Shown here: positions 33,787 through 57,200 of the stretch, one piece after another
How the letters are laid out: the number at the start of each line of letters is the position of its first letter
Position numbering within the stretch: the stretch's first letter is position 1
Virus record (IMG/VR): IMGVR_UViG_3300022695_000133
Location: 9,907-73,906 of that record
Origin: a virus
Length of the DNA stretch: 64,000 bases
Strand: one strand, 5' to 3'
The notes under the pieces: model-generated
The model's input: the letters and a program-made list of their open reading frames with translations, nothing else
What the model was told of the DNA's origin: nothing
Database searches by the model: none
Translations under genes and position numbers: made by a program

Positions 33787-35499
33787 TTATCTGAATATAA
33801 TTTCATATTTAAATAATCCACAATCCCAAATACGGTCATAACCCAGTTCTATTGTTAATTCTTTTTCAGTTTTTAAAAAATCTAAATTGGGGTGTTTTTT
33901 CTTTAATGATGATTTACCAAATCCAAATTTATGAAATCTTTTTAATCTATTAACGCTAGAGTTATAATACCAATAATTAGGCTTTCCTATATTCATTAAT
34001 TTAAATCCCATTTTTGTGTACATATTATCATAAGGGTCTAATGTCCACCTTCTGTCAGCAAAGCTAATAATATTATTTGGGTTATAATTTTTAATAAAAT
34101 ATTTTAAAATTTTAGATGGTAAACCATTAATAATATAATTATCGTGGGTTGCAAATCTAGATAATTCATACCCACCTTTATTAAGATTTTTTGTCATAAT
34201 ACGCTTATTTTTAAATGTCATGACCCCAATTAGTATATTATTATAAAAAGCTCCCAATTTAATATTACTTTTATCATTTCCTTGTATATGGTAATTATTT
34301 AAAAATGGTGATTTTTCTTTATTATTTATTTCTTTAATAATACATTCTCTAGCTCCAATTTTATTACTATTTGATAACCCAAGTATATGAATTAGCTTAT
34401 TTTTAATTAGATTTTTATTACTTACCCACTCATCCTCAAAAATATGTATTAACCCATAGCCAATTGAATTTGATAATAATGTTTTATTTAGGTGAAAATA
34501 TCTATTTTTACCCATTTTTTCTTGGTGATAATATAAGCCATTATATTCAATTGCTAAATGATGATTCGGTATTACAATATCTAATTCAACCCCCTTTAAT
34601 AATTTACGGTTATTCGAAAGTATAGTTAATCCTAATGATTTAACAAATTCCTTAATTTCTATTTCAGCTTTAGAGGTAAACCTTTTTTTAATTAATAAAC
34701 TAGCATCATTAAAATTATCACTAAAAATTTTATGTGTTTTTTTTGATAATAAATTACCGTATTTTTCTTTATATTCTTGCGGGGTTATATTATGTTTTTT
34801 TAAATGAGTGTTATTTATACTTTTCATTTTTTTTCCACATATTTCACAAATAATAAAGTTATCTTTATTATTTAAAAATAAATTATTTTCTAATTTTTTA
34901 GCATAAACTGGGTGATATTTAATTTCTTTTGGGAATTTTTCCAAATACTGTTCTAAACTAATATTATGCTTATTCACTAAATGATTTTCAAATACACCAC
35001 TTTTATTTTTAATATCAATTGTTTCCCAATTGCATAATTCACATTTTCTAGTTTTTTTTAAATCTATTTCATTAATTGTAAAATATTTTTCATACCATTG
35101 TTTATTATTTTCAATGAAATATTTATTTCTTTGATAAGTATTACTTGGTATATCACAATGGATACCCAAATTCATTAAATGTTTTGACAATCCACCACTG
35201 CGATTATTATAGTCTAATATTATTTTACCTGTTGAATTGCATACAGCAATTAAAACTTTACCCTTAGAAGGTTTATTTAAGCTTGGTATGAAATTTTTAA
35301 TTTTTTTTGTTAAATCATCATTAATTTTACCACCACGTTTTTTTAATTTAACACCACGGTTATTTAAAATTTTTTTAATTTTAAGTTTACCTAATTTATG
35401 CTTAGTGGCTATTGGAGTAATTCCAAAATTATCTTCTAAATATAATTTAACAATTTCATTTTTTTCAATTTCAGTAATTATTCTTGTTCTTTTTCCCAT
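33787..35499 (-). CDS. Hef-like / Vsr-type (PD-(D/E)xK) homing endonuclease with zinc-finger and HTH modules
   Basis: CELCNW...H...H and CEICG...HLKKH fingers; ELDIVIP...AIEYNGLYYH nuclease motif; IGAREC...FLNNYHIQG, YELSRFA, YDRIWDCG. Confidence 0.75.
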   Translation of the reverse strand: MGKRTRIITEIEKNEIVKLYLEDNFGITPIATKHKLGKLKIKKILNNRGVKLKKRGGKINDDLTKKIKNFIPSLNKPSKGKVLIAVCNSTGKIILDYNNRSGGLSKHLMNLGIHCDIPSNTYQRNKYFIENNKQWYEKYFTINEIDLKKTRKCELCNWETIDIKNKSGVFENHLVNKHNISLEQYLEKFPKEIKYHPVYAKKLENNLFLNNKDNFIICEICGKKMKSINNTHLKKHNITPQEYKEKYGNLLSKKTHKIFSDNFNDASLLIKKRFTSKAEIEIKEFVKSLGLTILSNNRKLLKGVELDIVIPNHHLAIEYNGLYYHQEKMGKNRYFHLNKTLLSNSIGYGLIHIFEDEWVSNKNLIKNKLIHILGLSNSNKIGARECIIKEINNKEKSPFLNNYHIQGNDKSNIKLGAFYNNILIGVMTFKNKRIMTKNLNKGGYELSRFATHDNYIINGLPSKILKYFIKNYNPNNIISFADRRWTLDPYDNMYTKMGFKLMNIGKPNYWYYNSSVNRLKRFHKFGFGKSSLKKKHPNLDFLKTEKELTIELGYDRIWDCGLFKYEIIFR

Positions 35500-42223: not shown

Positions 42224-45200
42224 TTATTTTTTTAATTTATTATCAATTTCATTTATCATATTGTTTATTTTATCATTAAATTTTAAATTTTTATTATAAA
42301 TCTTTACATTACTCCTACCAAGTGTTTTAGGATTTGATATTTTATTCAATAATTTATTATAAATGTTCTTATTTTCATGTATTAATTTATTTTTTATTTT
42401 AATCCCTTCATTAGCTTCCTTATCTTCCTCTGATTTATTATCATCGTTAGTTAAATCATTTGATTTTAAAGTATCACCCATATCATCTCCATTCTCCCCA
42501 CCAATATCATCATCAATATTATCTAAGTCTAAATCTGGGGCATCATCAAACCCACCTCCGAACCCACCTCCGAACCCACCTCCGAATCCACCGCTCTTAT
42601 TATCTTTACTAATTTCCTTAGCCTCTTCATCGGTTTGCCCACCCTTCATTGCAATATCCATATCGCCATAAACTCTATCTACTTTATCATAAAATCCAGT
42701 GTGTTTAATTACCCTATGAGTGTTTTCAAGTTCAGATGCCGCAGCTCTTTCAATTCTTTGTTCAATTAAATCTTCTTTTATTTCATCATTACTCCACCCT
42801 AAAATTTCTTTTTTAGCCCTAGTCATTGACATAGGTGAAAATCCATTTCCACCATCAGAGACAGCATCTTTATATAAACTAATTTTTGAGGCAGTTTGTT
42901 CTATTTTTAACATTTCTGCTTGGGTTGATGGATTATTTAATGATAATGTAAAATTATCTAAATCATCATTAAACCCTAGTAAATATAAATGTATAATTGC
43001 AATTTTATTTAATTCATGAAGCATTGCTTGTTGAATTCTATTAATTGTTCTTGAAAATCTAATATCTTGTAGCGCCAAATTTTTACCCTCTCCAGTTGCT
43101 TCTTCAAAACCTAAAAAAGTTTTAGGAACTCGTAGTGCAGTGAATAATTTCTTTTGTAAATATTCAATATCGGCTATCTGGTCTAAATTTGAATTTTTAA
43201 TAAAAACACCACTTTCTATTGCAAATGTGTGATAATCATGATAAATATCATTACCGTCCACAGTAATAGTACCAGTATCCATTTTAGTGTTCAACCAATC
43301 AATTTTTACTATTTTATGATTATACGTATTATCAAATTCAGTTATTAATTCTGGGGATTGATTTTCATAAATATCATCAGAAATAAAATGCTTTTTAAGT
43401 CCTTTAGATTTCATAAATTCATTAACCATTATATCTGTATAAACCCATTTTCTTTCAGCATTATCCCAAACTTTTTCATGCTTTTTAAAATCTTTGTTTA
43501 TAGATTCATTTTCGTCATTTCTATAAAATGGCATTAAAGAATCACCCACAATAAGATTATTGGCTTCAACAAATCCTTTTACCCTATGCAACCATTTATG
43601 GTCAGGTGTGGTAATAATTGACTCTCCGTTATCTAAAGTTATTTTAATTACATCTGCGTTTTTTCTTGTTTCACCAGCCCAAGTTATTATACCAGGTGCT
43701 AATTTTCCATTTTTAGGGTCACAAGAATACACCCACAAATCTCGATTACCAAAGTTCCACTCATTAATTATCTCATTTAATGATAATGTTCTACCATCTA
43801 AAAGTGGGATTCGTGTATCTAATGAAATACATGCGCCTGGAAGTGTATCAATGGGCGTTTCTGCATTTTCGGTTCTAACAGGAACAAATATATCTTGGTC
43901 ATACCCAAGTTGGTTATATCTCAAATCCATTTGACCAGTTTGAGGGTCAACCAATGGTGCTCTTTTAAACCTATTTGCTATTTCATTAACATATTGTTCA
44001 ACATCCTTATTATCTATATTACCAACATATATTTTATATACACGTCTTTCTGGTGCTCTGGTTACACGATAAACCAGCATCGCATCTTCAGATAAAATTA
44101 ATTGTTTCCAAATACGCCTAACTTTTTCTAAAAATGAGGTTCCATATGGTAATTTTCTATCATCACCTAATAATCTAAAATGGGCTATTTGCCAAGAATT
44201 AAACGTTATATCCCTACCTTTCCAGAAAAATTTTGTTTTGTTTTGTGTTTCATCCTGGTTTGTTCCATTTAATTGGGATGGTGATATAATACCATTAACA
44301 TTATTTTCCCTTCGTTCAATCTCAAAGTTTGGTAATTGCCTAGCACCCATGATTCCAGCCTTATCGTCTATATTTAAATTAATGAAATTATCGCCGAATT
44401 TACAAAGATTTCGTGTCCACATTGGTAGTGAAGTGTGAATATCTAATCTATTTACAAATAAATCCTCTAAAATATTTTTAACCCTTTTGCTATCCGAAAA
44501 TACGTTTATGATTTTACCTTTATCATTTGGTGTGCAATTATGCAAAATCACCATACCCGTGTTACACATAACCCCAAAATTTGAAAATTCTCCAACATTT
44601 AAAATGTCATAAGTTTTTTCATTACCTTTGGATTTAATTGAAATTACTTTATGTTTACCTGTTAATATTTTTTCATCTCCATTTTTATTTATTTTACTAT
44701 AAATAGAACTTAATGACATGCCATTACTCAAATCCCTTGTTTCAGCCCAAATACCCTCACTTGTTAACCATTTATGGTCTGCTGTTGCCGTTATTATAGT
44801 GCCATCGTCCAAAGTTACACCAAAGACACTTTTTACGCCCTTATAAACTACTGAATCAGCTTTACCTGTAGTAAATTCTTTATTATTTGGATTAATTGAA
44901 TAAACTAAAAAATCTTTTAATTTATCCTCATATAATTCTTCGAGAGTTTTAATATCCCCATTTAATAGTTTAATTTTAGTTTCACCGACCAAACATGATT
45001 CTTCCATCATAATATCTAATGCGGCTGAAATTTCTGGGTAAAATTCCATAGTTTCAAAGTCTGAATAAGAACCAATTCTAGTGGTTTCATAATGAATTGC
45101 TTGCTGATATAATTCACCATCAACTTTATTCCACATACCAGCCAAATATTTATTTTGCTGTGCTTGTAATTTAGCTGCCTCAAATTCTTCCTTTGACTGG

Positions 45201-45319
45201 GTTTTTAATAACTCACCTTTATTTAAATTATATATATTTTTTTTATAATTAGTTCTTACACCCTGTTTCCCAAAAACATCACCAAGTTGTTGAAATATTG
45301 TTGCTTTTTTATTTTTCAT
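42224..45319 (-). CDS. gp20: Portal protein, T4 gp20-like, with two inteins
   Basis: YPEISAALDI, IAHFRL...PYGTSFLEKVRRIWKQL..SEDAMLVYRVTRAPERRVYKI, IDTLPG, DIEYLQKKLFTALRVP. Confidence 0.95.
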   Translation of the reverse strand: MKNKKATIFQQLGDVFGKQGVRTNYKKNIYNLNKGELLKTQSKEEFEAAKLQAQQNKYLAGMWNKVDGELYQQAIHYETTRIGSYSDFETMEFYPEISAALDIMMEESCLVGETKIKLLNGDIKTLEELYEDKLKDFLVYSINPNNKEFTTGKADSVVYKGVKSVFGVTLDDGTIITATADHKWLTSEGIWAETRDLSNGMSLSSIYSKINKNGDEKILTGKHKVISIKSKGNEKTYDILNVGEFSNFGVMCNTGMVILHNCTPNDKGKIINVFSDSKRVKNILEDLFVNRLDIHTSLPMWTRNLCKFGDNFINLNIDDKAGIMGARQLPNFEIERRENNVNGIISPSQLNGTNQDETQNKTKFFWKGRDITFNSWQIAHFRLLGDDRKLPYGTSFLEKVRRIWKQLILSEDAMLVYRVTRAPERRVYKIYVGNIDNKDVEQYVNEIANRFKRAPLVDPQTGQMDLRYNQLGYDQDIFVPVRTENAETPIDTLPGACISLDTRIPLLDGRTLSLNEIINEWNFGNRDLWVYSCDPKNGKLAPGIITWAGETRKNADVIKITLDNGESIITTPDHKWLHRVKGFVEANNLIVGDSLMPFYRNDENESINKDFKKHEKVWDNAERKWVYTDIMVNEFMKSKGLKKHFISDDIYENQSPELITEFDNTYNHKIVKIDWLNTKMDTGTITVDGNDIYHDYHTFAIESGVFIKNSNLDQIADIEYLQKKLFTALRVPKTFLGFEEATGEGKNLALQDIRFSRTINRIQQAMLHELNKIAIIHLYLLGFNDDLDNFTLSLNNPSTQAEMLKIEQTASKISLYKDAVSDGGNGFSPMSMTRAKKEILGWSNDEIKEDLIEQRIERAAASELENTHRVIKHTGFYDKVDRVYGDMDIAMKGGQTDEEAKEISKDNKSGGFGGGFGGGFGGGFDDAPDLDLDNIDDDIGGENGDDMGDTLKSNDLTNDDNKSEEDKEANEGIKIKNKLIHENKNIYNKLLNKISNPKTLGRSNVKIYNKNLKFNDKINNMINEIDNKLKK
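43193..43831 (-). other. Mini-intein 2 in portal (213 aa)
   Basis: PGA|CISLDTRIPLLDG ... TPDHKW ... GVFIKN|S; penultimate Lys instead of His; no LAGLIDADG. Confidence 0.92.
44537..44995 (-). other. Mini-intein 1 in portal (153 aa)
   Basis: EES|CLVGETKIKLLNG ... TADHKW ... YDI ... VILHN|C. Confidence 0.93.
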
Positions 45320-45383: not shown

Positions 45384-48140
45384 TTATCTTGTTCCACTAA
45401 ATAACCACATATATTTACCAGTAGGGTCTTGCATGTTTCTACTAACAACTGGGCTAAATTTTGGTTTTTTTGCCGATTTAACCCCCCTATCTTTTTTAGA
45501 TACAAAATTATCACCCTCATAAGCAGAATCATCTTCATTATTAGCCATAATCCATCCACTTAACATCGCTTTTGCCATTTCTTTAGATTTCTTTAACTTT
45601 TTAAATGATGTGTCTATAACCCATAATGCCATAGCCAATGCCATAAGTAAATCGTCATGATACCCATCTTGATGGTCAGCTCTCCCATTTTTATAAATAA
45701 AACTTTCCATTTCATTTATTAATCTTGCAGACCTAACCTTAATACCATTTGTTCTTATCATGAATTCAAGATGGGAGACCATTGGGGTTCTAAGCCCAGC
45801 CCAAACATTAAACCCAGGATACTTACCTATATTTGTTTGAAATTCAATATTATGTGTTAATTTTTCTAAAGGTTTAGCCGCATTTTCGCCATAGTACAAA
45901 TTAGGTGTTTTTAATTCTAGTAATTTATTAATAGTACCAACACCCATACCACCTGTAATATCAACAACAACTAATGCATTATAAATTCTAGCATATTCAT
46001 CAATAATATAGGCTAGCAAATCTGGTTGAACCTTACCTTTATATTCCATGACTTCGTTCATAGTGTCAAAATCAAGAATAATAATTGTTGAGGAATCTGC
46101 CCCATCACCTCTAGAAACATCAGAACTTAATATGTATTTATGCCCCTTTATCGGTTTTTCCCAAACCCATATTTTATCATTTTTATCGGAAATAAATAAT
46201 GGGGGTTTTTTATTGTATCTTTCTTGAAATTTTATATACTTGTTATCAATCACATTACCACCAGACCCAATAAAAGAAACATCTAATTCTTGGGCAATCA
46301 TCTTATGGTCACCATTTAATCCACGGCACATTTCTCTATACCAACTAGAAGTTGGATTATATCCATCTTTTATTAATTTGGTATAATGCTCATGTGTAAA
46401 TTCAACCTCAGTTATTATATCATTTTTATTATTTTCATGTATCCATTTTAAATCTTTATTATATCTTGGGTCTTGATACCACTTCATTTCAACAATGTGA
46501 AAGTCATTATCCCCTTCTATAGAATTATGATATGTTTTATAATATAATTTATCTTTACCATTTGGTGTTGATATTAATGTAGCTCTACCACCAGTGTTAT
46601 GGCTAATAAATCCATTAGAAATAAATGAATTAGTAGATGGTACGTGTAAGTCATATGTATAGTTTTCAGATTTTTCTATGCTAACAATTTCATCTATATA
46701 ATTTTTTGCTTTTGTTTTATTATATTTTTTATTTTTAAATATTTTATTAATAAATTTATTTATATGGTGAGTCTTAATTTTTAAAGTATATTTATTTTTT
46801 TTATCTTTAATTTTTGATATTATACCCAGATTAAGCAATAGAATTTGTATAATCTTAACATTATTTTTAGAAATAAAACTATATTCTATTTTTTTGGAAA
46901 TAAAACTACCATTTATCTCAAAAATCCCACGTAAAAATTTAATAATGGTTTTTTCATCCATTTCTAATAATTCTAATGGTATTTCTGCGCTATTAAAATT
47001 TAACTTATTGAGTAAATTAATTAGGTCTGATGAAGTCGATTCAAAAACATGACTTTTGGTCTCATTAAATTTATGGTTTGCTTCCCCTAAAATATATAAT
47101 AAAAAATATTTAATATAAATTTTTTTATTATAATTTTTTATTACTATTTTATTATTATATATTTCTCCACCCCCGCATAATAATCCAGCTAAATAAGCAA
47201 TGCATGGGTTTAAACTTTTAACATTCCCAAAATAATTTTGATTATATTGAATTATTGGTTTATCGCCAATTGCCAATTCATTTAATTTAACCCAATCATT
47301 ATTATCACCTCTTTTAATCATAATTGGGTGCTTCCAACTACCCTCTAATATGAGGCCTAATTTAGTTTTTATTTTGAATGTTTCGCCAAATTCACTAACA
47401 AATGTTTTGGTTATGTTACTTAAATTTCCATTCTTATTACATACTTTATGTTGAATATTAGCTTTACTAAATCCGATTTTGTTTTTTTCTTTAATTAGAT
47501 TATCCAAAGGTATTAACCCATTATCAGTTAAAATTAAGCTATCTTTTGTGATACAACCTAATGCTGTTAATGCCGCCCCAAATACCTTATCACCATTTTC
47601 AATAAAAGCCGCCTCATCCATTATAAGTACTGTTGGGGTAAACCCACGTAAGGCATCTTTAGACGTGGCAACTGCTTTAATTCTACTTTTGTTTGGTAAT
47701 TTTATTTCTTTTTTTGAATCAATTAAAAATATAGGCTTTTCTAATTTTTTTTCTGAACCATAATATTCATTGCCCCAAACCCATCTAGGAATTTGTATTA
47801 AAAATCCCTTAATTTTATCCAAAAACTCAAATGACATATCTTGTTTATTGGCCAATATTAAAATTTGCTCTGGATTTTTTGGGCTGGCAAATGCCGTTAG
47901 AATTGATAAGTAAGCGGCTGTAGTTGTTGTAACACCAGCTTGTCTAGGTTTAGTAACCATGTTAAACCTATGCTCTATGTATGAATTTATAATTTCTTTT
48001 TGCTTTTGGAATAATTTAAATGGTACAAACCCATTTTGTGTTTTATCAAAAGTTTCTAAGTAATTTTCTATTGCGTATATAGGGTCATCTAAACATTTAT
48101 AGTATTCTTCTAATATTTCATGAGCAGTAAGATTAAGCAT
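45384..48140 (-). CDS. gp17: Terminase large subunit, T4 gp17-like, with intein
   Basis: KPRQAGVTT (Walker A), LIMDEAAF (Walker B), LISTPNG, DVSRGDG, HDDLLMA. Confidence 0.96.
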   Translation of the reverse strand: MLNLTAHEILEEYYKCLDDPIYAIENYLETFDKTQNGFVPFKLFQKQKEIINSYIEHRFNMVTKPRQAGVTTTTAAYLSILTAFASPKNPEQILILANKQDMSFEFLDKIKGFLIQIPRWVWGNEYYGSEKKLEKPIFLIDSKKEIKLPNKSRIKAVATSKDALRGFTPTVLIMDEAAFIENGDKVFGAALTALGCITKDSLILTDNGLIPLDNLIKEKNKIGFSKANIQHKVCNKNGNLSNITKTFVSEFGETFKIKTKLGLILEGSWKHPIMIKRGDNNDWVKLNELAIGDKPIIQYNQNYFGNVKSLNPCIAYLAGLLCGGGEIYNNKIVIKNYNKKIYIKYFLLYILGEANHKFNETKSHVFESTSSDLINLLNKLNFNSAEIPLELLEMDEKTIIKFLRGIFEINGSFISKKIEYSFISKNNVKIIQILLLNLGIISKIKDKKNKYTLKIKTHHINKFINKIFKNKKYNKTKAKNYIDEIVSIEKSENYTYDLHVPSTNSFISNGFISHNTGGRATLISTPNGKDKLYYKTYHNSIEGDNDFHIVEMKWYQDPRYNKDLKWIHENNKNDIITEVEFTHEHYTKLIKDGYNPTSSWYREMCRGLNGDHKMIAQELDVSFIGSGGNVIDNKYIKFQERYNKKPPLFISDKNDKIWVWEKPIKGHKYILSSDVSRGDGADSSTIIILDFDTMNEVMEYKGKVQPDLLAYIIDEYARIYNALVVVDITGGMGVGTINKLLELKTPNLYYGENAAKPLEKLTHNIEFQTNIGKYPGFNVWAGLRTPMVSHLEFMIRTNGIKVRSARLINEMESFIYKNGRADHQDGYHDDLLMALAMALWVIDTSFKKLKKSKEMAKAMLSGWIMANNEDDSAYEGDNFVSKKDRGVKSAKKPKFSPVVSRNMQDPTGKYMWLFSGTR
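46596..47555 (-). other. Intein in terminase (320 aa) with degenerate LAGLIDADG domain
   Basis: ALG|CITKDSLILTDNG ... YDLHVP ... NGFISHN|T; internal YLAGLLCGGG and FLRGIFEINGS. Confidence 0.92.
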
Positions 48141-53664: not shown

Positions 53665-54072
53665 TTAAATTAATTTAGTTAGTAATTTAATGAAATATTT
53701 GATATCATTAACATCTGAGAATTTATCGCTAATTATTTTTTCATATATAATTTTTATTTCATCTTTAGTGCGCTTTATATTAGATTTATTTATTACGTTT
53801 AACTCTTCCTTAATCAAGTCAGTATTTATTTTTTCATAAAATTCAGCTCTATATTTTGGCTTTATAATAGAATTTAAAAATTTTCCTTGGCTATCCGAAG
53901 TTTCAAATGTAACATAATCAATAAGAGAAACATCAAAATACTTATATTTAGCCCCAGATGAAAATACAATTTCCAAAATATTATTTAGTTTATTATATGT
54001 GGACGATAATATATTAGATGAATTATAGTACCCATTAATTGTTTTTTCATTTTCAGTTCTTTCTTTTATCAT
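53665..54072 (-). CDS. KTSC-domain protein
   Basis: SSNILSSTYN...LEIVFSSGAKYKYFDV...SQGKFLNSIIK. Confidence 0.85.
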   Translation of the reverse strand: MIKERTENEKTINGYYNSSNILSSTYNKLNNILEIVFSSGAKYKYFDVSLIDYVTFETSDSQGKFLNSIIKPKYRAEFYEKINTDLIKEELNVINKSNIKRTKDEIKIIYEKIISDKFSDVNDIKYFIKLLTKLI

Positions 54073-54150: not shown

Positions 54151-54930
54151 ATGAAATTTAAGGCTAGCGCCAAAGTAAAGTCTATTTTTACTAATGCTTT
54201 AGAAGAAGTAAAAAATTATGATGACACAAAATTAAATCCAACGCATTTATTGATATCAATAATTATTGATGGTAATAATGATGTTATTAACATTCTTAAT
54301 AAATGTAAAATTGATATTAATAAACTATTTAATTCTGGGACTTTATTTTTAGGTACTAATAATTTAACCAGTAAAAGGCCATATACAACTAACACCCATT
54401 TAAGTGCTACTGATACCGTTAATCGAATCATGAAGCAAATTAACATTGAATGTGAATTGCTAGGTAATAAAAAAATAAATGAATTACATTTAATGTTATC
54501 AATTTTAAAGAGTAATTCATACGCAAAAAAATTACTAAATAAATTTAATATAAATTATCTTAATTTTAAAAATAATATTATGGAAAAAGAATTTGAAGAA
54601 GAAATGGATAGAGTTAACTCAGAAAATAATCAAAAACCAGCTAAGTCTAATAAAAATATGAAAACCCCAATTTTAGATAAATTTTGTAATAATATATCAA
54701 AAGCAGTTGAAGATGGTAAAATAGACCCAATTATTGGGCGTGATAAAGAAATAAAAAGACTTAGTTCGATTTTATCTAGACGTAAAAAAAACAACCCAGT
54801 ATTAATTGGTTTACCAGGCGTTGGAAAATGTGTTTGTTCTGACACAGAAGTAATTATCAGAAATGATTTAACTGGTAAAATAAGAAAAACTACAATAAAA
54901 GAAGTCTTAAAAATGTTTCCAAACACATAG
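54151..54930 (+). CDS. clpC: ClpC N-part (Clp_N domain + D1 to Walker A Lys) fused to a 33-aa N-intein
   Basis: GKIDPIIGRDKEIKR...RRKKNNPVLIGLPGVGK|CVCSDTEVIIRN...; IntN at 54829-54927. Confidence 0.92.
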   Translation: MKFKASAKVKSIFTNALEEVKNYDDTKLNPTHLLISIIIDGNNDVINILNKCKIDINKLFNSGTLFLGTNNLTSKRPYTTNTHLSATDTVNRIMKQINIECELLGNKKINELHLMLSILKSNSYAKKLLNKFNINYLNFKNNIMEKEFEEEMDRVNSENNQKPAKSNKNMKTPILDKFCNNISKAVEDGKIDPIIGRDKEIKRLSSILSRRKKNNPVLIGLPGVGKCVCSDTEVIIRNDLTGKIRKTTIKEVLKMFPNT

Positions 54931-54979
54931 AAAGTATTTCAATAAATTTTATTATGAAAAAAATTATAAAAAATAAAAT

Positions 54980-57154
54980 ATGAAAAATTTAAAAAAAATA
55001 ATAAAATCATTCGATATGAGTGATTATAGTATACTAACTGATAGTGGGTTTGAAAAGTTAAATAAACTCCATAAAACAGTACCATATGAGGTATATCACC
55101 TTAAATTATCTAATGGTAAAGAACTTAAATGCGCTGATAATCATGTTGTATTTCAATTTGAAAATGATGAATTAACTGAAGTTTTTGTTAAAGATTTAAC
55201 TAAAGATTCGTTAATTGTTTCAAATAATAAAATAACTAATTCATTATCTAAATCTGAACTTATATCGTTAACCGATTTAAGATATAAAGAAAATATGTAT
55301 GATTTCGAATTGAGTGAAAGTGCAAATAAAAGATACTATACAAATGACATTTTATCCCATAATACAGCAATAATTGAAGGGTTGGCAACTTTAATTTATG
55401 AAGAAGAGTCTCCATTGCCATTATTAGATAAAAAAATATATTCATTAAACCTATCTTTAATTGTAGCTGGAACCAAATATAGGGGCCAGTTTGAAGAAAG
55501 AATGAAAATTATATTATCTGAATTAAAAAATAACCCGAATGTTATCTTATTTATTGACGAATTACACACTATTGTTGGCGCTGGAAATAGCACTGGTTCT
55601 TTGGATGCATCAAATATATTAAAACCAGCCTTAGCCAGAGGTGAAATTCAAATTATTGGCGCAACTACATTAGATGAATATCGAGAAAATATAGAAAAAG
55701 ATGGGGCATTAACTAGAAGATTCCAAGAAATATTGGTTGAGGAACCCACATTGCCAGAAACTATAATAATTCTTAATAAAATAAAAGAAAATTATGAGGC
55801 GTATCACAATGTTATATATTCGGATGAAATTATTAATGAAATCGCCAAGTTAAGCGATAGATATATCTCAGGTAGAGCTATGCCAGATAAAGCAATTGAT
55901 GTCTTAGATGAAGTTGGGGCATCAACTAATGTAATAATGGGCTATCCAGAAGAAATCACTAATATAAAATTAAAAATAAAAGAATTAAATGAGAAAAAAT
56001 TAAAGATAATAACTGAGCAACGTTATGAAGAGGCAGCCCTAATTAGAGATGAGGAAGATACTTTAAAACATAATCTAAATAAGAAGACAAAGTTATGGAA
56101 TGATAAAAATAAAAATAATCCAACTAAAATTACATTGGATATGGTTGCAGCATCAATGTCAATTATTACTGGAATTCCTTTAAATAAATTAACAGTGTCA
56201 GAAAATAATACTTTGAAAAATCTTGAATTAGATTTGAAAAAAATAATAATTGGGCAAGACGAAGCCATAAATAAAGTATCTAAGGCAATAAAACGTAGTA
56301 GGCTAGGTATTAAAAACAAAAAATCACCAATTGCTAGTTTTTTATTTTTAGGAAATTCTGGAGTAGGTAAAACATTTTTGTCTAAAGTTTTGGCTGATAA
56401 AGTATTTGGAGATTCAGATGCTTTAATAACAATTAATATGGGTGAATATATGGAAAAACATGCAATGTCAAAAATGATTGGGGCGCCTCCAGGTTATGTT
56501 GGATATGGAGAAGGTGGAAAATTGACCGAACCAGTTAGAAAAAAACCATATTGTGTTATTTTATTTGATGAAATAGAAAAAGCCCACCCAGATATGTTTA
56601 ATTTACTTTTACAACTATTAGATGAAGGAAGTTTAACCGATAGTAATGGCAGAAAAGTGGATTTTAAAAATACCTTGATTATTATGACTTCAAATATTGG
56701 GTCAATGGAAGTATCTAAGTTTGGTGAGAGTATTGGATATAGCAGCCAAAATAGTAGAATTATTGATGCACAAAAAAGAGCCAAAAATATTATAAAAAAA
56801 GCGTTAAAAAATAAATTTAGACCAGAATTTATAAATAGAATTGACGATATGATAATATTTAATTCATTAACTACTGAAAACATATTAGAAATTGTTAATA
56901 ATGAATTGAATTTGGTTAAAGAGCACATTAACGAACTAGGGTATGAACTAGATGTCACTAAATCAGCACGCAAATTTATTGCCAAAGAAGGTTATGATAA
57001 AGAATTTGGTGCTAGACCATTAACCAGGGCAATTCAAAAATATGTTGAAGATGTAATAGCCGACGAAATTATGAATGGTAACCTTAATAATGAAACTAAT
57101 AAAATTAAAATTAATTATACATTAAATAATGGAATAAAAGCTATAATTAACTAA
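54980..57154 (+). CDS. clpC: 128-aa C-intein fused to ClpC C-part (rest of D1, M coil, D2)
   Basis: CADNH (block B), MYDFEL (block F), ILSHN|TAIIEGLA; FIDELHTIVGAG, GNSGVGKT, GAPPGYVGY, LFDEIEKAHP, FGARPL; IntC at 54980-55363. Confidence 0.93.
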   Translation: MKNLKKIIKSFDMSDYSILTDSGFEKLNKLHKTVPYEVYHLKLSNGKELKCADNHVVFQFENDELTEVFVKDLTKDSLIVSNNKITNSLSKSELISLTDLRYKENMYDFELSESANKRYYTNDILSHNTAIIEGLATLIYEEESPLPLLDKKIYSLNLSLIVAGTKYRGQFEERMKIILSELKNNPNVILFIDELHTIVGAGNSTGSLDASNILKPALARGEIQIIGATTLDEYRENIEKDGALTRRFQEILVEEPTLPETIIILNKIKENYEAYHNVIYSDEIINEIAKLSDRYISGRAMPDKAIDVLDEVGASTNVIMGYPEEITNIKLKIKELNEKKLKIITEQRYEEAALIRDEEDTLKHNLNKKTKLWNDKNKNNPTKITLDMVAASMSIITGIPLNKLTVSENNTLKNLELDLKKIIIGQDEAINKVSKAIKRSRLGIKNKKSPIASFLFLGNSGVGKTFLSKVLADKVFGDSDALITINMGEYMEKHAMSKMIGAPPGYVGYGEGGKLTEPVRKKPYCVILFDEIEKAHPDMFNLLLQLLDEGSLTDSNGRKVDFKNTLIIMTSNIGSMEVSKFGESIGYSSQNSRIIDAQKRAKNIIKKALKNKFRPEFINRIDDMIIFNSLTTENILEIVNNELNLVKEHINELGYELDVTKSARKFIAKEGYDKEFGARPLTRAIQKYVEDVIADEIMNGNLNNETNKIKINYTLNNGIKAIIN

Positions 57155-57174
57155 ATATTTTTTTTAAGAAACTG

Positions 57175-57200
57175 AAATCCCTCTCAATGAGGGATTTTTT
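57175..57200 (+). terminator. Intrinsic terminator after clpC
   Basis: AAATCCCTC-TCAAT-GAGGGATTT plus T run. Confidence 0.85.

What the first reader, a model, noticed from the sequence alone, without database searches (positions are those of the whole stretch)
54151..57154. ClpC ATPase split inside Walker A by an atypically split intein (IntN 33 aa / IntC 128 aa)
ORF1 ends GLPGVGK|C-V-C-S-D...FPNT*. After a 49-nt gap, in a different frame, ORF2 starts with an IntC carrying block B (CADNH), block F (YDFEL) and SHN|T. Trans-splicing would restore GVGK-T of Walker A. The short-N/long-C split matches the atypically split class (AceL-TerL/GOS-TerL type), which I know from terminases rather than Clp ATPases. 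It would make ClpC activity splicing-dependent and is a candidate protein-ligation tool with a Thr +1 junction.
Basis: partly seen in the sequence, partly recalled or inferred. Interest (0 to 1): 0.85.

Follow-up and report, generated by a model that had tools for sequence, protein, structure and literature searches.

The report
Split intein in phage ClpC
A T4-like phage encodes its ClpC protein-unfolding motor as two adjacent genes, broken inside the first ATP-binding loop by a lopsided split intein (33-residue and 128-residue halves) that most likely joins the two proteins after translation. This kind of element is already known from phage terminases, but I found no paper describing it in ClpC.

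Summary
ORF1 (54151-54930) ends ...GLPGVGK|C-V-C-S-D...FPNT-stop. A 49-nt gap closed in all frames follows. ORF2 (54980-57154, another frame) opens with 128 intein residues carrying KCADNH, MYDFEL and ILSHN|T, then continues as ClpC.

The exteins map onto solved ClpC at K214|T215 with nothing lost, so splicing would give an 822-aa ClpC with Walker A GLPGVGKT.

The 128-residue part:
- has its best PDB sequence hit in CatC (6DSL_B), the consensus atypically split TerL intein (E 4.3e-6);
- gives a model whose 50 best PDB matches are all inteins or HINT domains;
- is predicted to bind the 33-residue part (ipSAE 0.84; best control 0.00).

The joined halves (161 aa) align end to end with contiguous relatives; the break lies in a variable loop.

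A second contig carries the identical gap, and many metagenomic phage contigs carry the same split with different spacers. This rules out an assembly error. No sequencing run was listed, so raw reads were not checked.

The intein family is large (650 clusters at 50% identity) and targets Walker A of TerL, ClpC D1 and D2, and ClpX. This scan found the three-piece ClpC version earlier on other DNA (e1-5340538, e1-5340555).

Verdict: a real new member of a known kind. Splicing itself is untested. Interest is moderate.

The parts
54151..54828 (+). N-extein: ClpC N-terminal domain and the start of AAA+ module D1, up to the Walker A Lys (ORF1 residues 1-226, ending GLPGVGK)
   Evidence: Pfam Clp_N E 8.7e-9. 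NCBIfam ClpA/ClpB/ClpV N-terminal parts. Aligns to B. subtilis ClpC residues 12-214.
54829..54930 (+). IntN: 33 residues (Cys1 ... FPNT) plus the TAG stop. Holds block A, a strand and a short helix.
   Evidence: Conserved in 14 other ClpC N-fragments; C1 is invariant. Aligns with the N-terminal 33-46 columns of contiguous relatives.
54931..54979 (+). 49-nt AT-rich spacer between the two genes. Stops in all three frames, no nuclease gene, no terminator-like hairpin.
   Evidence: Identical in the independent contig L013. A 9-codon mini-ORF (54954-54983) overlaps the ORF2 start by ATGA.
54980..55363 (+). IntC: 128 residues. Block B is KCADNH (55127-55144), block F is MYDFEL (55295-55312), block G is ILSHN (55349-55363).
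   Evidence: PF14890 positions 38-155. PDB CatC 6DSL_B E 4.3e-6. AF2 model pLDDT 83.5. The top 50 Foldseek PDB hits are all inteins/HINT. Invariant C51, D53, H55, D108, H127, N128.
55364..57154 (+). C-extein: Thr+1 (55364-55366, the Walker A Thr), the rest of D1, a short UVR-type linker, an intact D2 (Walker A GNSGVGKT at 56351-56374), an IGY loop, the D2-small domain and the stop.
   Evidence: Pfam AAA_lid_9, UVR, AAA_2 and ClpB_D2-small. Best PDB matches are S. aureus and B. subtilis ClpC, from residue 215 on. Motifs listed.
57174..57198 (+). Terminator-like hairpin after ORF2. It is the only strong one in the + strand of the locus, which suggests that ORF1 and ORF2 share one transcript.
   Evidence: 10-pair stem with 4 G-C pairs, followed by a T run. 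Co-transcription is an inference.

Best explanation
The locus is one ClpC gene of a T4-like phage, broken into two adjacent, probably co-transcribed genes by a naturally and atypically split class-1 intein. The intein sits at the classic P-loop site, between the Walker A Lys and Thr of module D1.

Proposed mechanism:
1. After translation, the 33-residue IntN tail of protein 1 docks into the 128-residue, nearly complete HINT domain at the head of protein 2.
2. Cys1 makes the N-S acyl shift, helped by the block B His.
3. Thr+1 attacks to form the branched ester.
4. The terminal Asn cyclises, helped by the penultimate His and the block F Asp.
5. An O-N shift leaves a normal peptide bond.

The product would be an 822-aa ClpC with Walker A GLPGVGKT. 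Before splicing, neither fragment has a complete D1 nucleotide site.

What is shown: the anatomy, the homology, the fold, the predicted docking, and conservation of the catalytic residues and of the split across many phages.

What is inferred: that splicing occurs, that it is efficient, and that ClpC function depends on it.

The split probably arose in a contiguous ancestor when a free-standing homing-nuclease gene broke it, and that gene was later lost here. Relatives still carry such a gene between the halves.
For: Junction and exteins:
- ORFs, frames and stops.
- ExtN ends at the K214 equivalent and ExtC starts at the T215 equivalent of solved ClpC.
- In all listed phage ClpC hits but three, the match to ORF2 starts at residue 128 or 129.
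- The virtual spliced protein has both Walker A and both Walker B motifs.

Intein identity:
- PF14890 positions 38-155.
- CatC 6DSL_B E 4.3e-6 and gp41-1 E 1e-3.
- AF2 pLDDT 83.5. The top 50 Foldseek PDB matches are all inteins/HINT, including Cat 6DSL and VidaL 6VGV.

Docking:
- Complex prediction ipSAE 0.84, best of 3 controls 0.00. That mark was reached by 58 of 80 solved complexes and 2 of 110 mismatched pairs.
- The runs share at least 60% of contacts; partner pLDDT is at least 69.
- My own alignments were used, so the calibration counts hold only roughly, and the pass may reflect memory of solved inteins.
- Contacts join the Cys1 region to blocks B, F and G and to Thr+1.

Completeness:
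- IntN + IntC = 161 aa. It aligns collinearly with 13 contiguous relatives of 150-162 aa, with the break in a variable loop.

Not an artefact:
- L013 is a separate JGI contig, 99.985% identical over 6606 nt, with the identical gap.
- 14 other N-fragments end in a homologous IntN of 31-39 aa.
- 217 proteins match ORF2 residues 1-135; of the 120 listed, 102 show the family's LSHN|T/S/C junction within 175 residues of their start.
- Related loci have spacers of 28 and 57 nt with different sequence.

Selection:
- C1 is invariant. C51, D53, H55, D108, H127, N128 and T+1 are invariant across 37 homologues that are only 53-68% identical overall.
Against: - No experiment or read-level data. No sequencing run was listed, so neither the DNA gap in raw reads nor expression could be checked.
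- The window's IntC sits on the longest terminal branch of its group (0.66), so it is the most diverged copy.
- No ClpP gene was found in the 79.5-kb record, which is only about 22% complete. The biological role of the spliced ClpC is therefore unknown.
- There is no Shine-Dalgarno before ORF2, but only 1 of 56 genes in the window has one, so this carries no weight.
- The complex prediction may owe its score to resemblance with solved inteins.
Confidence: 0.85

Rival explanations
1. The two genes are real, but the intein is splicing-dead or inefficient. The fragments would act as a non-covalently assembled two-chain ClpC held together by the intein halves, or ORF2 would work alone through its intact D2 ring, or the locus is on its way to decay.
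For: Splicing is untested. D2 in ORF2 is complete. The window's IntC is the most diverged of its group. Published natural split inteins vary greatly in activity (PMC11923092 abstract).
Against: All catalytic residues (Cys1, block B His, block F Asp, His-Asn, Thr+1) are kept here and are invariant in 37 homologues. There are no frameshifts or stops in either extein. With the intein left in place, the D1 P-loop would be interrupted between Lys and Thr.
Confidence: 0.09
2. Assembly or sequencing error: the true gene carries a contiguous intein, or none, and the stop, gap and frame change are artefacts.
For: This is a metagenome-derived contig of 26% G+C rich in A/T runs. Raw reads could not be examined. 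Contiguous relatives of this intein exist in other host genes.
Against: A second contig record has the identical gap. Stops lie in all three frames within 49 nt. The same architecture occurs in many divergent contigs with different spacers. Nothing is missing from the intein.
Confidence: 0.02
3. Recoding: readthrough of TAG plus a +1 shift fuses ORF1 and ORF2 on the ribosome into a cis-splicing precursor.
For: The genes are adjacent on one strand with a short gap. Another note on this window (e1-5354293) proposes a slippery A-run elsewhere in the window.
Against: The fusion would need to pass at least two stops (TAG 54928, TAA 54943) and change frame, and the target frame is closed by TAA at 54974. 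Relatives have spacers of other lengths and sequences, and some hold whole genes of 382-493 codons between the halves.
Confidence: 0.02

Closest known systems
AceL-TerL, GOS-TerL and their consensus Cat-TerL: naturally atypically split inteins of phage terminase large subunits (Thiel et al. 2014; Bachmann and Mootz 2015; Stevens et al. 2018; PDB 6DSL; as summarised in PMC11766414 and PMC13014065)
   Same: - Short IntN (25-37 aa there, 33 here) and long IntC (104-115 aa there, 128 here).
- Phage origin and insertion in a P-loop ATPase.
- Block B reads K-C-x-D-N-H, with Cys where most inteins have Thr (alignment).
- CatC is the best PDB sequence hit (E 4.3e-6).
- Homologous IntC sequences (38% identity) sit in split TerL loci L010-L012.
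- The break falls after the first helix, as described for the TerL pair (PMC13014065).
   Different: - The host protein is ClpC, not terminase.
- The junction chemistry is Cys1/Thr+1, against Cys1/Cys+1 (AceL) and Ser1/Cys+1 (GOS).
- IntC is about 13-24 residues longer.
- No activity data exist.
Fractured genes of Dassa et al. 2009 (PMC2677866): split inteins with a free-standing homing-nuclease gene between the halves
   Same: - A phage gene in pieces, with split-intein halves at the break.
- Relatives of this locus carry an ORF of 382-493 codons between the halves (L017, L014, L007). One of them shows a weak Vsr-fold match (MTES_1575 E 5e-4, DUF559 E 7e-3).
   Different: - Here the gap is 49 nt and holds no nuclease gene.
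- The hosts listed in that paper are gp41, IMPDH, DnaE, NrdA, NrdJ, ligase and terminase. 'Clp' occurs 0 times in it.
VidaL and PolB16 OarG atypically split inteins (PDB 6VGV; PMC10189870)
   Same: Natural split inteins from metagenomes with a short N piece. VidaL is among the Foldseek hits (rank 28).
   Different: Those are split earlier, right after strand beta2, with IntN of 15-16 aa (PMC13014065). PolB16 has serine at both catalytic positions (Ser1/Ser+1). Neither appears in the sequence search.
Classic P-loop inteins inserted between the Walker A Lys and Thr (for example mycobacteriophage TerL1-a; PMC5050341)
   Same: The same insertion point, GK|T, in an ATPase active site.
   Different: Those are contiguous, cis-splicing inteins.
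Three-piece phage ClpC with split inteins at both Walker A motifs
   Same: An orthologous locus: the same divergent KTSC-domain neighbour, the same D1 insertion point, and 62% identical IntC (P0133).
   Different: In the window, D2 Walker A (GNSGVGKT) is intact, so ClpC is in two pieces, not three.

Membership tests
Intein (HINT domain, class 1 splicing) | Nucleophile at intein position 1 (block A Cys or Ser) | tested here: met
   Cys at ORF1 residue 227, directly after Walker A Lys. Invariant in 17 aligned IntN sequences.
Intein (HINT domain, class 1 splicing) | Block B His; block F Asp; block G His-Asn; a Cys, Ser or Thr at +1 | tested here: met
   KCADNH, MYDFEL, ILSHN|T. H55, D108, H127, N128 and T129 are invariant in 37 homologues.
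Intein (HINT domain, class 1 splicing) | HINT fold | tested here: met
   AF2 model of IntC, pLDDT 83.5. The 50 best Foldseek PDB matches are all inteins or hedgehog HINT domains, probability 1.00. Pfam PF14890 scores E 2.9e-5, below the gathering score, as expected for a partial domain.
Intein (HINT domain, class 1 splicing) | Exact in-frame insertion: the exteins rejoin to give the uninterrupted host sequence | tested here: met
   ExtN ends at the ClpC K214 equivalent and ExtC begins at the T215 equivalent. The intein-free relative P0018 reads GVGKTAIVEGLA.
Intein (HINT domain, class 1 splicing) | Protein splicing activity | not testable with these tools
   Needs expression and gel or MS detection.
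Naturally split intein | The two halves are encoded by separate genes, each fused to one extein | tested here: met
   Stop, 49-nt gap with stops in all frames, new frame and own ATG. Identical in the independent contig L013. Recurs in relatives.
Naturally split intein | The halves associate to rebuild the active site | tested here: inconclusive
   In silico only. ipSAE 0.84 against a best control of 0.00; that mark was reached by 58 of 80 solved complexes and 2 of 110 mismatched pairs. Runs agree in at least 60% of contacts; partner pLDDT is at least 69. The result may reflect resemblance to solved inteins.
Atypically split inteins of the AceL-TerL / GOS-TerL / Cat type | Short IntN (15-37 aa in known natural cases, PMC13014065) holding block A only; IntC holding blocks B, F and G | tested here: met
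   IntN is 33 aa and IntC is 128 aa.
Atypically split inteins of the AceL-TerL / GOS-TerL / Cat type | Sequence homology to the family | tested here: met
   CatC 6DSL_B is the best PDB hit, E 4.3e-6. TerL-borne split and contiguous homologues occur at 35-50% identity.
Atypically split inteins of the AceL-TerL / GOS-TerL / Cat type | Split after the first helix (S2 position) | tested here: inconclusive
   The break falls in the variable-length loop after the conserved I-x-D/E-hydrophobic segment of contiguous relatives. The secondary structure of IntN was not read out.
Fractured gene (Dassa et al. 2009) | Free-standing homing-endonuclease gene between the intein halves | tested here: not met
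   The 49-nt gap holds only a 9-codon ORF. Such a gene is present in relatives L017, L014 and L007.
ClpC-type class I Hsp100/Clp unfoldase | Clp_N domain, two AAA+ modules with Walker A and B, a short UVR-type linker, a D2-small domain | tested here: met
   Pfam Clp_N, AAA_lid_9, UVR (21.4 bits against a cut-off of 21.5), AAA_2 and ClpB_D2-small. Motifs. The best PDB hits are S. aureus and B. subtilis ClpC. The spliced length is 822 aa, against 810-818 for those.
ClpC-type class I Hsp100/Clp unfoldase | ClpP-docking loop (hydrophobic-Gly-aromatic) and a ClpP partner | tested here: inconclusive
   IGY aligns with the AGF of S. aureus ClpC. No ClpP gene is in the 79.5-kb record, which is about 22% complete. 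A host ClpP could serve instead.

The most novel reading that the evidence does not exclude
The split is not merely tolerated. It would act as a post-translational switch: the phage ClpC becomes an active unfoldase only when both fragments have accumulated and conditions allow trans-splicing (redox state of Cys1 and of the block B Cys, or temperature). That would time proteolysis or disaggregation within the infection cycle. A related reading is that this intein lineage jumped from the D1 to the D2 Walker A of the same protein, producing natural pairs of closely related inteins that must not cross-react.
Probability: 0.12. Interest if true: 0.7.

Novelty: new member of a known kind. Interest (0 to 1): 0.45.

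Why it matters
[quoted passage not shown] Only a handful have been characterised: AceL-TerL, GOS-TerL, VidaL and PolB16 OarG.

This locus adds three things:
- A new host protein, ClpC, and a Cys1/Thr+1 junction in the TerL-type (after-helix) split class.
- A door into a very large natural family: 650 clusters at 50% identity. It has split and contiguous members, several insertion sites and many natural extein contexts. That makes it a resource for mining faster or mutually orthogonal pairs.
- A biological point: a phage-encoded AAA+ unfoldase whose first ATP site exists only after protein splicing.

It is not a new principle.

Tried and rejected
- Raw-read check: the look-up of sequencing runs on 54500-55500 and on 54780-55130 listed no run. 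Read laying was therefore not used, and neither expression nor the gap could be confirmed from reads.
- Literature: 'split intein' + 'ClpC' gave 3 irrelevant papers. 'intein' + 'ClpC' gave 10, none describing a ClpC intein. Dassa 2009 has no 'Clp'.
- Key subscription papers are not held and could not be checked for ClpC examples or supplementary lists. These are Thiel 2014, Bachmann 2015, Stevens 2017 and 2018, Burton 2020 and Sekar 2022. 'Undescribed' therefore means 'not found in the open-access library'.
- ClpP: none in the own record. This is uninformative at 22% completeness.
- Promoter scan: sigma-70-like hits are at the shuffle expectation (28 found, 26.7 expected), so I draw nothing from them.
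- Shine-Dalgarno: none before ORF2, but 55 of 56 genes in the window also lack one. I rejected this as an argument.
- Pfam on the inter-half ORFs of relatives: only L014's 493-aa ORF gave weak hits, all below the curated cut-offs. L017, L007, L009 and the tail of P0006 gave none. Their nuclease nature is a guess.
- A fused IntN+IntC could not be submitted to Pfam or to structure prediction, which accept only unaltered sequences. I replaced that test with the two-chain complex prediction and a MAFFT alignment to contiguous relatives.
Full report
**Setting.** The window is part of a 79.5-kb IMG/VR virus record, about 26% G+C. It carries T4-type Gp23 capsid and Gp20 portal genes and a T4-type terminase. 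The record is intein-rich. The portal holds two Intein_splicing matches. The terminase holds one intein with a LAGLIDADG domain.

**The observation.**
- ORF1 (54151-54930, 259 aa) has a Clp_N domain and runs to ...PVLIGLPGVGK. It then continues for 33 residues that start with Cys (TGT 54829-54831) and end FPNT, followed by TAG.
- After 49 nt, ORF2 (54980-57154, 724 aa) starts in another frame.
- All three frames are closed within the gap: TAG 54928 and TAA 54943 in the ORF1 frame, TAA 54974 in the ORF2 frame, and TGA 54981 in the third.
- ORF2 residues 1-128 carry KCADNH (block B), MYDFEL (block F) and ILSHN (block G). T129 follows, and then AIIEGLA and the rest of a two-ring Clp ATPase.
- The start at 54980 is supported by conservation of residues 4-10 (L-K-K-I-x-K-S; K5 and K6 are invariant) upstream of the next Met.

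**The junction is exact.**
- Against solved ClpC, ORF1 aligns up to PVLIGEPGVGK, which ends at K214 of B. subtilis ClpC.
- ORF2's T129 aligns with T215 of S. aureus ClpC.
- In a tblastn against 50,697 phage records, the match to ORF2 begins at residue 128 or 129 in all listed ClpC hits but three.
- Joining ORF1 1-226 to ORF2 129-724 gives 822 aa. This product has Walker A GLPGVGKT, Walker B ILFIDELH, D2 Walker A GNSGVGKT and Walker B VILFDEIEK. ClpC of B. subtilis and S. aureus is 810-818 aa.
- An IGY tripeptide aligns with the AGF loop of S. aureus ClpC. From general knowledge of Clp ATPases, that is the ClpP-docking loop, so the protein is ClpC-like rather than ClpB-like. This is an inference.

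**The inserted sequence is an intein in two pieces.**
- Pfam Intein_splicing matches ORF2 27-128 at profile positions 38-155 of 155.
- The best PDB sequence hit of ORF2 1-135 is 6DSL chain B, 'Consensus engineered intein CatC' (E 4.3e-6). The gp41-1 intein follows. CatC shares the unusual K-C-x-D-N-H block B.
- An AlphaFold2 model of IntC plus 12 extein residues has mean pLDDT 83.5. Its 50 best Foldseek matches in the PDB are all inteins or hedgehog HINT domains, among them Cat (6DSL), gp41-1, VidaL, Aes123 PolB1 and NrdJ-1.
- The two-chain prediction used ORF1 205-259 and ORF2 1-140, with my own alignments A1 and A2. It scored ipSAE 0.84 in all three runs, against 0.00 for the best of three controls. 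That mark was reached by 58 of 80 solved complexes and 2 of 110 mismatched pairs. The runs agree in at least 60% of contacts, and partner pLDDT is at least 69.
- The predicted contacts pair IntN residues around Cys1 with IntC 49-56 (block B), 104-109 (block F), 119-127 and Thr+1. They also pair the IntN strand with IntC 15-19.
- As the tool warns, a pass for a family with solved complexes shows likeness, not binding.
- IntN + IntC (161 aa) aligns collinearly with 13 contiguous inteins of the same family (150-162 aa), found in TerL and other P-loop proteins. The break falls in a loop whose length varies by up to 12 residues. Nothing is missing from the intein.

**Not an artefact.**
- No sequencing run was listed, so raw reads could not be examined.
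- A separate JGI contig (L013, 7127 bp) is 99.985% identical over 6606 nt and has the identical stop, gap and start.
- A search with ORF1 found many proteins of 257-298 aa, some on contigs up to 295 kb. They end ...GxGK followed by a homologous 31-39-residue IntN.
- A search with ORF2 residues 1-135 found 217 proteins. Of the 120 listed, 102 show the family's LSHN|T/S/C junction within 175 residues of their start.
- In related loci the D1 gap is 28 nt (L006) or 57 nt (L014), with different sequence.
- C1, and in IntC the residues C51, D53, H55, D108, H127, N128 and T+1, are invariant. Overall identity to the window is only 53-68%.

**The wider family.**
- A full scan of 1.84 billion cluster representatives with IntC alone gave 650 clusters at E <= 1e-3 and 320 at E <= 1e-10.
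- Of the best 150, 120 have the intein end within 175 residues of the protein start, which means they are split. Twenty-five are internal. Most of these are contiguous inteins after a TerL-type Walker A (SRQxGK|C), and a few are IntC fragments with an N-terminal extension rather than contiguous inteins. The +1 residue is Thr in 110 and Ser in 35.
- Hosts seen here:
  - ClpC D1 (this site).
  - ClpC D2 (GxTGVGK|T-x-LAK).
  - ClpX (L008).
  - TerL (L010-L012).
  - Other P-loop proteins.
- Many phages have ClpC in three pieces: a ~270-aa N piece, a ~490-aa middle piece that begins with IntC and ends with IntN, and a ~420-aa C piece. The window has only the D1 split.
- In a maximum-likelihood tree of 95 IntC sequences, the 52 D2-site sequences form one clade (99/99) nested among D1-site sequences. 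The window groups with D1-site sequences on a long branch. The tree is rooted at its midpoint only, so a single D1-to-D2 jump is a reading, not a result.
- A different split allele sits three residues upstream: GEPG|C-V-L-G-D-T..., a 24-residue IntN, with ...VSHN|TGKT on the other side. It has a 382-codon ORF between the halves (L017).
- ORFs of 382-493 codons also lie between halves in L007 and L014. One has a weak Vsr-fold match. This recalls the 'fractured genes' of Dassa et al. 2009 (PMC2677866).

**Expression context.**
- The only strong terminator-like hairpin on the + strand lies after ORF2 (57174-57198). None lies in the gap. Co-transcription is therefore likely but not shown.
- Only 1 of 56 genes in the window has a core Shine-Dalgarno motif. 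Its absence before ORF2 therefore says nothing.
- The last 12 nt of the window's gap (AAAAAATAAAAT) recur near the end of L014's gap, followed there by two more bases (AT).

**Comparison with what is known.**
- Natural atypically split inteins are described with IntN of 15-37 aa. They are split either after strand beta2 (VidaL, PolB16 OarG) or after the first helix (AceL-TerL, GOS-TerL) (PMC13014065; PMC10189870; PMC11766414).
- The window's intein belongs by sequence to the TerL/Cat lineage. It appears to be split at the after-helix position.
- It differs in host protein (ClpC) and in junction chemistry (Cys1/Thr+1).
- GK|T is the 'classic' P-loop intein site (PMC5050341).
- I found no paper in the searchable library that describes an intein in ClpC. 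The primary papers on this class are not held, so prior description in their supplements cannot be excluded.
- This scan has already reported the three-piece ClpC on other DNA (e1-5340538, e1-5340555) and a D2-only split (e1-5375100, e1-5375121).

**Verdict.** This is a real, conserved, naturally and atypically split intein in the D1 Walker A of a phage ClpC. It is a new member of a known kind. Trans-splicing is very likely (0.85) but untested. Interest is moderate (0.45). The value lies in the new host and junction, and in the size and variety of the natural family, not in a new principle.

Noticed in passing
L017:5001-9228 (JGI 3300034101 contig, 69.8 kb); also P0016, P0023, P0028, P0037: A second, distinct split-intein allele in the orthologous ClpC, three residues upstream. 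The N-fragment ends GEPG followed by a 24-residue IntN (CVLGDT...IDK). Then comes a 382-codon ORF with no Pfam match. The C-fragment's intein part ends VSHN and is followed by TGKTAIVEGLA.
   Followed up: partly
L014:6001-11208 and L015:3082-8289: ClpC in three genes, with homologous split inteins at both Walker A motifs. A 493-codon ORF sits between the middle and C pieces. It shows weak MTES_1575/DUF559 (Vsr-fold) matches, so it may be a homing nuclease.
   Followed up: partly
L008:3412-5188: A ClpX-like gene split the same way. The N-fragment ends GPTGTGK followed by a 37-residue IntN. Sixteen nt later an IntC of about 121 aa ends SHN|TLIAKTVA.
   Followed up: no
L010:2319-6826 (same in L011 and L012): A terminase-like gene apparently in three pieces. 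The first ORF ends ARQSGK followed by IntN. A 774-aa ORF starts with IntC and itself ends in another IntN-like tail (C-V-K-S-E-T...KDK-stop). A 518-aa ORF follows.
   Followed up: no
window 42224-45319 (-) and 45384-48140 (-): The portal (Gp20-like) carries two Intein_splicing matches. The terminase large subunit carries an intein with a LAGLIDADG domain. With ClpC, that makes four inteins in one 64-kb window.
   Followed up: partly
window 33787-35499 (-): A 570-aa ORF next to the major capsid gene has a ROS/MucR zinc-finger match (E 7e-11) and a REase_MTES_1575 match (E 1.4e-5). This is the same nuclease fold weakly seen in the ORF between intein halves in L014. It may be a free-standing homing nuclease.
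   Followed up: no
window 54954-54983 (+): A 9-codon mini-ORF (MKKIIKNKI) lies in the gap. Its TGA overlaps the ORF2 ATG as ATGA. In such AT-rich DNA it is probably chance.
   Followed up: no
whole window: Only 1 of 56 long ORFs has a GGAG/GAGG/AGGA motif 4-20 nt upstream of its start, and starts are preceded by A-rich tracts. This suggests a host that does not use Shine-Dalgarno initiation, such as Bacteroidota.
   Followed up: partly
window 53665-54072 (-): A KTSC-domain gene (PF13619) lies divergently upstream of ClpC. It is conserved in that position in L013, L014, L015 and L017, which marks these as orthologous loci.
   Followed up: no
tree of 95 IntC sequences: All 52 D2-site inteins form one well-supported clade nested within D1-site inteins. 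This suggests one jump from the first to the second Walker A of ClpC. The rooting is unresolved.
   Followed up: partly
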